From: a virus
Lineage: Duplodnaviria; Heunggongvirae; Uroviricota; Caudoviricetes
DNA length: 11,721 nucleotides
Virus record (IMG/VR): IMGVR_UViG_2663762849_000017
Strand: one strand, 5' to 3'
The notes under the pieces were generated by a model. That model made no database searches and was not told the DNA's origin. It saw nothing but the letters and a program-made list of their open reading frames with translations. Shown here one piece after another: positions 11,444 to 11,660 of this stretch (within the stretch, counting starts at the first letter, position 1; the number at the start of each line of letters is the position of its first letter). The translations under genes and the position numbers were made by a program.

Positions 11444-11608
11444 CTGCTGCGCCATATGGGCTGGACTGAAGCCGCAGACCTGATTGTTAAAGGTATGGAA
11501 GGCGCAATCAACGCGAAGACCGTAACCTATGACTTCGAACGTCTGATGGAAGGCGCTAAACTGCTAAAATGTTCAGAGTTTGGTGACGCGATCATCAAGA
11601 ACATGTAA
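11444..11608 (+). pseudogene. icd: 3'-terminal 165-bp fragment of isocitrate dehydrogenase gene (icd), marking the prophage attachment-site junction
   Basis: Translation [54 protein letters not shown] matches the Icd C-terminus with a few substitutions. Homology begins abruptly at 11444, with unrelated AT-rich DNA upstream. The length is exactly 165 bp, the size of the icd 3' segment duplicated by e14 / phage 21 integration. Confidence 0.85.
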
Positions 11609-11632
11609 TCTCTACATGTGTTAAATATTGAA

Positions 11633-11660
11633 ACGGGCGTATAACACGCCCGTTGTTTTT
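11633..11660 (+). terminator. Rho-independent terminator downstream of icd
   Basis: ACGGGCGT (11633-11640), loop ATAAC, ACGCCCGT (11646-11653), followed by TGTTTTT. Confidence 0.7.

What the first reader, a model, noticed from the sequence alone, without database searches (positions are those of the whole stretch)
11444..11660. 165-bp icd 3' fragment with its terminator marks a prophage att junction
Homology to the last 54 codons of icd starts abruptly at 11444, downstream of unrelated AT-rich DNA, and runs to the stop and an intrinsic terminator. The length equals the icd segment known to be duplicated when e14 or phage 21 integrates into icd. Several codons differ from the K-12 icd 3' end (e.g. 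...MEGAK...IIKNM), the kind of variation reported between phage-derived and chromosomal copies. With no integrase nearby, this is the int-distal junction.
Basis: partly seen in the sequence, partly recalled or inferred. Interest (0 to 1): 0.5.

Follow-up and report, generated by a model that had tools for sequence, protein, structure and literature searches.

The report
Prophage right junction inside icd
This is the well-known right-hand junction (attR) of a phage-21-type prophage inserted in the E. coli isocitrate dehydrogenase gene: the stretch is the gene's original tail and terminator, pushed aside by a defective prophage that carries the SitABCD iron/manganese transporter. It is ordinary and already described.

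Summary
It is the only icd-like sequence in the window. It follows 30%-GC DNA and is followed by a 9-bp-stem intrinsic terminator (11632-11654 plus a T run).

The interpretation also holds. The left flank (11164-11444) is the P arm of phage 21 attP: 91.5% identical to phage 21, 98.2% to free phage 4A7, only 54% to e14. It carries the phage 21 arm dodecamer CTTTCCCCAAAA. The right flank (11663 onward) is the chromosomal DNA that abuts icd in unoccupied genomes. A rebuilt empty site occurs at 99.8% identity in single-copy genomes. So this is attR (P-O-B'), and the fragment is the displaced native chromosomal tail.

Refinements: the block shared with attP is 218 nt (11445-11662) and includes the terminator. 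The element is 21-type, not e14-type. The MEGAK/IIKNM residues are the common allele; K-12 is the odd one. About 27% of complete E. coli genomes carry the same junction.

Already known; low interest. A side note is an unexplained rsxB-to-prophage join at 178/179.

The parts
11445..11608 (+). Displaced native 3' end of icd (TG of codon 362, codons 363-416 and the stop). A promoterless pseudogene equivalent to K-12 icdC.
   Evidence: 164 nt, 92.1% to K-12 icd nt 1088-1251, E 4.5e-65. One nt different from icd in the unoccupied strain AR_0017.
11445..11460 (.). Identity block TGCTGCGCCATATGGG, shared by attB, attP, attL and attR at the left edge of the homology. Inferred site of Int strand exchange (core/overlap).
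   Evidence: Four-way alignment. Left of 11445, attR matches attP and attL matches attB. The first attP/attB polymorphism is at 11461, and the window carries the attB state there and at every later diagnostic site. The exact overlap region is inferred, not shown.
11445..11662 (+). Full block homologous between chromosome and phage attP (icd tail, stop and terminator), 218 nt.
   Evidence: Phages 4A7, 4C10, 1W and 3W match the window up to 11659, and phage 21 matches 11164-11659. Divergence begins at 11663.
11632..11660 (+). icd intrinsic terminator (stem 11632-11654, then a T run).
   Evidence: z -3.1. Conserved in attB, attP and attL.
11164..11444 (.). Phage P arm of attR (phage-21 type), AT-rich.
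   Evidence: 91.5% to phage 21 attP, 98.2% to phage 4A7, 53.7% to the e14 P arm. The 4A7-type homology continues left to at least 10530.
11314..11325 (+). Arm-type Int binding dodecamer CTTTCCCCAAAA.
   Evidence: Exact match to the consensus YYTTCCCCAAAA annotated in the phage 21 record. It is the only exact match in the window and is conserved in phages 21 and 4A7. Binding is inferred.
11345..11357 (+). IHF consensus match AATCAAACGGTTG in the P arm.
   Evidence: One of only 2 exact WATCAANNNNTTR matches in the window (0.46 expected). The aligned positions in phage 21, 4A7 and the e14 P arm also fit the consensus (read by eye). Binding is inferred.
11412..11424 (+). Second IHF consensus match TATCAATGACTTG.
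   Evidence: Not conserved in phage 21 (TATCAGCGAGTTG), so this site is weaker.
11663..11721 (.). Chromosomal B' flank. ymgL (minus strand) begins near 11692 and runs off the window.
   Evidence: Identical to the flank of icd in the unoccupied strain AR_0017. ymgL is annotated in relatives.
7079..10528 (-). sitDCBA iron/manganese ABC transporter, the cargo in the phage 'b region' next to attP.
   Evidence: ORFs. Pfam ABC-3 and ZnuA. Annotated as sitABCD in relatives and in phages 4A7 and 21.
4340..6406 (+). Prophage side tail fibre.
   Evidence: Pfam phage_tail_N, 4.8e-67.
700..4287 (+). In-frame fusion of the first 65 residues of the SAR endolysin to tail-tip protein J. A deletion scar that makes the prophage defective.
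   Evidence: Residues 1-65 are 98% identical to RrrD. J domains run from residue 149.
485..700 (+). Phage 21-type holin S.
   Evidence: Pfam PF04971 'Bacteriophage P21 holin S', 2e-35.

Best explanation
Window 11164-11721 is the attR junction (P-O-B') of a phage-21-family lambdoid prophage integrated in the E. coli icd gene.

The free phage's attP carries its own copy of the last 54 icd codons plus the icd terminator. This copy lies between an AT-rich P arm next to the sitABCD cargo and a P' arm with three Int dodecamers next to int. Int, a tyrosine recombinase, exchanges strands at the very left edge of that homology, around TGCTGCGCCATATGGG (window 11445-11460).

After integration, the host icd 5' part is completed by the phage-borne tail at attL, so the enzyme stays intact. 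The host's own tail and terminator are left promoterless about 30 kb away, at the far end of the prophage beside the tail-fibre and sit genes. That displaced tail is what the window shows.

The fragment has no function of its own while the prophage is resident. Together with the P arm (one Int dodecamer, IHF-type sites) it would be the substrate for Int/Xis/IHF excision, which would put it back into service.

Shown here: the homologies, boundaries, flank identities, gene order, and the existence of the empty site and of free phages with this attP. Inferred: the exact strand-exchange position, protein binding to the P-arm motifs, and excision competence. The prophage is defective (endolysin::J deletion), so this junction is probably a fossil.
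For: - There is one icd-homologous segment, with a sharp GC step at its left edge.
- The four-way alignment shows attR = attP on the left, attR = attB on the right, and all four alike across 11445-11662.
- The P arm is 98.2% identical to free phage 4A7 and 91.5% to phage 21.
- The phage records show sitA - P arm - icd' - terminator - dodecamers - int - xis.
- The rebuilt empty site is found at 99.8% over 578 nt as a single piece in single-copy genomes. In AR_0017, whose record was read, icd and ymgL are adjacent.
- In ChlosBP-23-1 a 21-type Int (98.7% aa identity) lies beside the intact icd.
- 1462 of 5426 complete genomes share this junction.
- K-12 icdC is the annotated precedent.
Against: - No integrase or attL lies in the window, so the partner junction of this particular strain is unseen.
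- The rsxB join at 178/179 suggests the prophage may be split in the source genome.
- In one set of close relatives the left end is e14-type, not 21-type. The element can therefore be composite, and attR may have no cognate Int.
- The P-arm binding sites are consensus matches only.
Confidence: 0.95

Rival explanations
1. The junction belongs to an e14-type element (as in K-12) rather than a phage-21-type phage.
For: e14 uses the same icd site and leaves a 165-bp icdC. Some close relatives have an e14-type intE and P' arm at the left end.
Against: The window's P arm is only 53.7% identical, with many gaps, to the e14 P arm. It is 91.5% identical to phage 21 and 98.2% to 4A7. The 21-type dodecamer is present. 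The holin is P21-type, and sitABCD lies next to attP as in phage 21.
Confidence: 0.02
2. The fragment is the phage-borne copy: the window shows a free-phage attP, an attL, or an internal junction between tandem prophages, rather than the chromosomal tail.
For: Phage copies are 95-96% identical to the fragment and encode the same peptide. In FDAARGOS_1252 the attR-side copy carries the TGCAGC variant also seen in phage 21, so exchange between copies may happen.
Against: Right of 11662 the window lacks the three dodecamers and int. It matches the chromosomal flank of unoccupied icd exactly. At all 8 sites that distinguish attP(4A7) from attB, the window has the attB state.
Confidence: 0.02
3. 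The 50-codon ORF 11456-11608 is an expressed small protein or otherwise functional gene. It is annotated as a CDS in some phage records.
For: The ORF is intact. All differences among the non-K-12 copies are synonymous. It is annotated 'isocitrate dehydrogenase' in the 4A7 record.
Against: - Its ATG is the internal Met366 of Icd, and the bases just upstream (tatatactgctgcgcc) show no Shine-Dalgarno-like run.
- Promoter-like hits in the region are at chance level (6 found, 5.4 expected).
- The phage 21 record calls it a pseudogene with no Shine-Dalgarno and no expression.
- The synonymous-only pattern is explained by selection on full-length Icd whenever a copy is joined to the icd 5' part.
Confidence: 0.02

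Closest known systems
Phage 21 attP / prophage 21 attR in icd (Wang et al. 1997, J Bacteriol 179:5705, cited from memory and via PMC12803456; GenBank OL657228, M61865)
   Same: Same insertion point in icd. The P arm is 91.5% identical. It has the same arm dodecamer, the same icd'-plus-terminator block, and sitABCD next to attP.
   Different: Left of 11164 the window follows the 4A7/Lambda_4C10 subgroup rather than phage 21 itself. The second IHF-like site is not conserved in phage 21. The prophage here is deleted for its lysis-to-tail genes.
Free temperate phages 4A7, Lambda_4C10, 1W, 3W and D2 (4A7 is classified in Bievrevirus)
   Same: 98.6% identity over window 10530-11659 for 4A7, 4C10, 1W and 3W, and 98.0% over 85% of that stretch for D2. 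In 4A7, the one record read, sitDCBA is followed by the P arm, core, icd' and terminator.
   Different: In the phages the block is followed by three dodecamers and int (attP). In the window it is followed by chromosomal ymgL (attR). Seven synonymous nt differences lie in the icd block.
e14 attR / icdC pseudogene of E. coli K-12 (Hill, Gray and Brody 1989; PMC6379469, PMC13626634)
   Same: Same chromosomal site, the same 164-165 nt displaced icd tail with the same terminator, and the same logic.
   Different: The P arm is essentially unrelated (53.7%). Int is only about 60% identical in protein to 21 Int. K-12 has iraM/ymgK between icdC and ymgL, which the window lacks. The K-12 copies differ by 2 amino acids each.
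PAI-icd ('Sit system' island) of ExPEC/AIEC strains such as CFT073, 536, UTI89 and LF82 (PMC7545054)
   Same: An island at icd carrying sitABCD. The window is the right end of such an island.
   Different: The review treats it as a pathogenicity island. The data here show it is a (decayed) phage-21-family prophage whose free relatives still carry sitABCD.
Phage lambda attR (P-O-B')
   Same: Same architecture: tail-fibre/b-region side, AT-rich P arm with arm-type Int and IHF-type sites, then core, then host DNA, with int at the other end.
   Different: Lambda shares only a 15-bp core with its host (own knowledge). Here the shared block is 218 nt because the phage must rebuild a coding sequence and its terminator.

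Membership tests
Phage-21-type att site in icd (attR) | Homology to icd begins at codon 362/363 and runs through the stop and terminator (about 209-218 nt shared between attP and attB) | tested here: met
   Block 11445-11662.
Phage-21-type att site in icd (attR) | Left flank is the phage 21 P arm, including the arm-type dodecamer YYTTCCCCAAAA | tested here: met
   91.5% to phage 21 and 98.2% to 4A7 over 11164-11444. Exact dodecamer at 11314-11325.
Phage-21-type att site in icd (attR) | Right flank is the native chromosomal neighbour of icd (B' side), not the P' arm and int | tested here: met
   Identical to the flank in the unoccupied AR_0017 locus. The rebuilt attB is found at 99.8%.
Phage-21-type att site in icd (attR) | Cognate 21-type tyrosine integrase and excisionase beside an intact icd at the other end (attL) | not testable with these tools
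   Lies outside the window. Seen in the relative ChlosBP-23-1 (Int 98.7% aa identical to phage 21 Int). In FDAARGOS_1252-type relatives the left end is e14-type and frameshifted.
Phage-21-type att site in icd (attR) | Int/Xis/IHF-dependent recombination at this site | not testable with these tools
   Needs an excision assay. Only consensus matches were found for Int arm and IHF sites.
e14-type att site in icd | P arm homologous to the e14 right end (mcrA-icdC spacer) | tested here: not met
   53.7% identity with 61 gap columns.
Sit-carrying icd island (PAI-icd) | sitABCD within a mobile element bounded by icd sequences | tested here: met
   sitDCBA at 7079-10528, followed by attR. Island listed in PMC7545054.

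The most novel reading that the evidence does not exclude
In the source strain this attR may be orphaned. A blunt join at 178/179 links the 3' part of rsxB, which lies about 0.5 Mb from icd in K-12 (map position from own knowledge), to the prophage's late region. This join occurs in none of 5426 complete E. coli genomes. If real, it would be an inversion that splits the prophage and separates attR from attL and int. The Sit-carrying remnant would then be irreversibly fixed and rsxB disrupted.
Probability: 0.3. Interest if true: 0.2.

Novelty: already known. Interest (0 to 1): 0.1.

Why it matters
It does not change anything known. It is a clean, fully resolved example of how phage 21-type phages use a protein-coding gene as their attachment site without inactivating it: they carry a spare copy of the gene's tail and terminator.

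It is practically useful for annotation. The 164-nt 'isocitrate/isopropylmalate dehydrogenase, partial' pseudogene marks the right boundary of the sitABCD island. That island is a decayed phage-21-family prophage found in about a quarter of complete E. coli genomes.

Tried and rejected
- Rfam scan of the whole window at gathering thresholds found nothing.
- Promoter-like sites around the fragment are at chance level: 6 found against 5.4 expected. There is no support for independent expression of the fragment.
- A minus-strand hairpin with a U run in the P arm (11232-11214) was considered as a lambda sib/tI-like retroregulator of int. The fold z-score is only -1.4 and many pairs are G-U, so it is not claimed.
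- Exact-pattern scans for the rsxB/prophage junction in GTDB representative genomes and in JGI metagenome contigs found nothing.
- The classical papers are not in the held library: Wang et al. 1997 (PMC179457), Hill et al. 1989 (PMC210168) and Mehta et al. 2004 (PMC331406). Statements about the 209-bp figure and the minimal attP size rest on my memory of the Wang et al. abstract.
- An e14 origin for the right end was tested and rejected.
- The readings as attP, attL or a tandem-prophage junction were tested and rejected.

Full report
**1. Observation**

Window 11444-11611 translates to [54 protein letters not shown]. I used K-12 icd as the query against the whole window.
- blastn gives a single significant hit: icd nt 1088-1251 = window 11445-11608, 164 nt, 92.1% identity, E 4.5e-65.
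- tblastn gives Icd residues 362-416, E 3e-29.
- All other hits are 11-21 nt chance matches.
- Base 11444 is C where icd has A, so the homology starts at 11445.
- The icd frame is closed by a stop 8 codons upstream.
- GC rises from 29.9% (10965-11443) to 48.5% in the fragment.

After the stop (11606-11608) comes a terminator-like hairpin. Its stem is 11632-11654 (9 pairs, 6 G-C) and it is followed by GTTTTTAT. The fold is -15.6 kcal/mol with z -3.1.

**2. Context within the window**

From left to right, the window shows a defective phage-21-family lambdoid prophage end (ORFs, Pfam).
- 485-700 is a 'Bacteriophage P21 holin S' (2e-35).
- 700-4287 is a 1195-aa ORF. Its first 65 residues are 98% identical to the SAR endolysin RrrD. 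The rest carries the full set of tail-tip J domains. This is an in-frame deletion scar that removes everything from Rz to the tail genes.
- 4340-6406 is a tail fibre.
- 7079-10528 on the minus strand is sitDCBA (ABC-3 and ZnuA families; named sitABCD in relatives).
- 10529-11443 is AT-rich non-coding DNA.
- Then comes the icd fragment, followed by the start of ymgL on the minus strand.

**3. Evidence from elsewhere**

*E. coli genomes.* All 5426 complete genomes contain the icd tail, with a median of 2 copies per genome. Of these, 1462 contain at least 80% of window 11300-11721, which means the same junction. In K-12 the displaced copy is the annotated 165-bp pseudogene icdC, at the far end of e14.

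*Free phages.* 4A7, Lambda_4C10, 1W and 3W match window 10530-11659 at 98.6%. Phage 21 itself matches 11164-11659 at 92.5%. The two records read (4A7 and phage 21) show the order sitDCBA - spacer - icd' pseudogene - terminator - three dodecamers (consensus YYTTCCCCAAAA) - int - xis.

*Empty site.* I rebuilt it from the 301 nt of icd that end at the junction (taken from a relative) joined to window 11445-11721. This construct occurs at 99.8% identity over all 578 nt, as one piece, in genomes with a single copy. In AR_0017 the gene order is rluE-icd-ymgL-ycgX-bluR.

*Opposite junction.* In strain ChlosBP-23-1, which is 99.5% identical across the junction, the intact icd lies about 29.6 kb away. 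Beside it are a 380-aa integrase, 98.7% identical to phage 21 Int, and an excisionase.

**4. Four-way att alignment**

- Left of 11445, attR (window) matches attP (4A7), and attL matches attB.
- Right of 11662, attR matches attB, and attL matches attP, which carries the three dodecamers there.
- Across 11445-11662 (218 nt) all four are homologous.
- At the eight positions in this block where attP(4A7) and attB differ, the window always carries the attB state. It differs from the empty-site allele at one synonymous base (11566).

The window fragment is therefore the host's original icd tail. The crossover lay at the extreme left of the homology, within the 16-nt block TGCTGCGCCATATGGG (11445-11460) if the donor was 4A7-like. 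The exact overlap region is inferred.

**5. Which phage family**

The P arm (11164-11444) is 91.5% identical to phage 21 and 98.2% to 4A7. It is only 53.7% identical, with many gaps, to the e14 P arm.
- It carries one exact dodecamer, CTTTCCCCAAAA, at 11314-11325. This is conserved in phages 21 and 4A7.
- It holds the only two exact IHF-consensus matches in the window: 11345-11357 and 11412-11424, against 0.46 expected.
- The aligned positions of the first IHF-type site also fit the consensus in phage 21, 4A7 and e14. The second site is not conserved in phage 21.
- From the dodecamer at 11314 to the last P' dodecamer in attP is about 400 bp. This agrees with the 366-418 bp minimal attP that I recall from Wang et al. 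1997, a paper I could not read here.

**6. Mechanism**

The phage carries a spare icd tail and terminator, so that integration inside the coding sequence regenerates a complete, properly terminated icd at attL. The host's own tail is displaced to attR, where it has neither promoter nor start codon. Excision would rejoin it.

This is established knowledge for e14 and phage 21 (PMC6379469, PMC13626634, PMC12803456, and the references they cite). The sequence relations above reproduce it for this locus.

All phage-borne and chromosomal copies outside K-12 encode the same 53 residues, despite up to 12 differences in 164 nt. This fits selection on whichever copy is in service. K-12's e14-derived icd tail and its icdC are the divergent ones, with 2 amino-acid differences each.

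**7. Rivals**

- An e14-type junction is rejected by the P-arm comparison.
- A phage-borne copy (attP, attL or a tandem-prophage junction) is rejected by the right flank and by the diagnostic SNPs.
- An independently expressed 50-codon ORF has no support. Promoter-like hits are at chance level, and the phage 21 record itself calls the copy an unexpressed pseudogene with no Shine-Dalgarno.

**8. Caveats and side observations**

- The window holds no integrase.
- In the relatives closest over the whole window (99.7% over 179-11721), the one read in detail (FDAARGOS_1252) has an e14-type left end. It has a frameshifted intE, 89.8% identical to K-12 intE, and an e14-type P' arm with GTTATCAAAA repeats. 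IS30, IS3 and ISEc21 copies lie nearby. These islands can therefore be composites of an e14-like and a 21-like element, with no cognate Int for this attR.
- Window 1-178 is the 3' part of rsxB on the minus strand. It is joined, without microhomology, to prophage DNA upstream of the holin.
- That join is found in none of the 5426 complete genomes, nor in GTDB representative genomes or metagenome contigs. It is either a strain-specific rearrangement or an assembly chimera.

**9. Verdict**

This is a textbook prophage junction, already known, and the Sit island at icd is already catalogued (PMC7545054). Interest is low.

Noticed in passing
window 1-181: The first 178 bases are the 3' part of the core gene rsxB (minus strand, about codons 93-150, 100% identical to E. 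coli rsxB). They are joined bluntly, with no microhomology, to prophage DNA that in a relative lies 284 bp beyond the porin (nmpC/ompC-like) gene. None of 5426 complete E. coli genomes, GTDB representative genomes or JGI metagenome contigs has this join. It is either a large rearrangement that splits the prophage or an assembly chimera.
   Followed up: partly
window 700-4287: The 1195-aa 'J' ORF starts with the first 65 residues of the SAR endolysin (98% identical to RrrD) fused in frame to tail-tip protein J. This deletion removes Rz, terminase, head and tail genes. At least 550 complete genomes cover 80% or more of the window, and the one relative read (FDAARGOS_1252) has the same 1195-aa ORF abutting the holin gene.
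   Followed up: partly
L002 17128-27000 (NZ_CP069528.1) versus L006 9600-12400 (NZ_CP048603.1): Relatives with the same 21-type right end differ at the left end. ChlosBP-23-1 has a 21-type int/xis directly beside icd. FDAARGOS_1252 has an e14-type P' arm, an AAA ATPase plus HNH endonuclease pair, a frameshifted e14-type intE and a cluster of IS30/IS3/ISEc21. This suggests a composite of two elements that used the same att site.
   Followed up: partly
window 11445-11608 and copies in L001-L007: All eight non-K-12 copies of the 54-codon icd tail (phage 21, phage 4A7, attL, attR and the empty site) encode the identical peptide, although they differ at up to 12 of 164 nt from the window copy. The FDAARGOS_1252 attR copy carries the TGCAGC variant also seen in phage 21. 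This hints at exchange between phage and chromosomal copies.
   Followed up: partly
window 11663-11700 versus L003 1940-1990 (K-12 e14 P' arm): The native chromosomal DNA just after the icd terminator (GTTAACCGTTATAAAATAACGTATCAAAAG) resembles the e14 P' arm (GCTAACGGTTATCAAAATTTTATCAAAA). So e14's homology with the host seems to extend further than phage 21's. In K-12 the sequence after icdC diverges from the window exactly at the end of the terminator, where iraM/ymgK are present instead.
   Followed up: no
window 11214-11232 (minus strand): A short hairpin plus U run in the P arm, on the strand on which int would be transcribed in the free phage. It could be a sib/tI-like element, but the fold is not better than shuffles (z -1.4).
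   Followed up: partly
window 10722-10961 and 11250-11417: Two small ORFs (79 aa on the plus strand, 55 aa on the minus strand) lie in the AT-rich spacer and P arm. The second is annotated 'hypothetical protein' in phage 4A7. Neither has a Pfam match, and both are probably not genes.
   Followed up: partly
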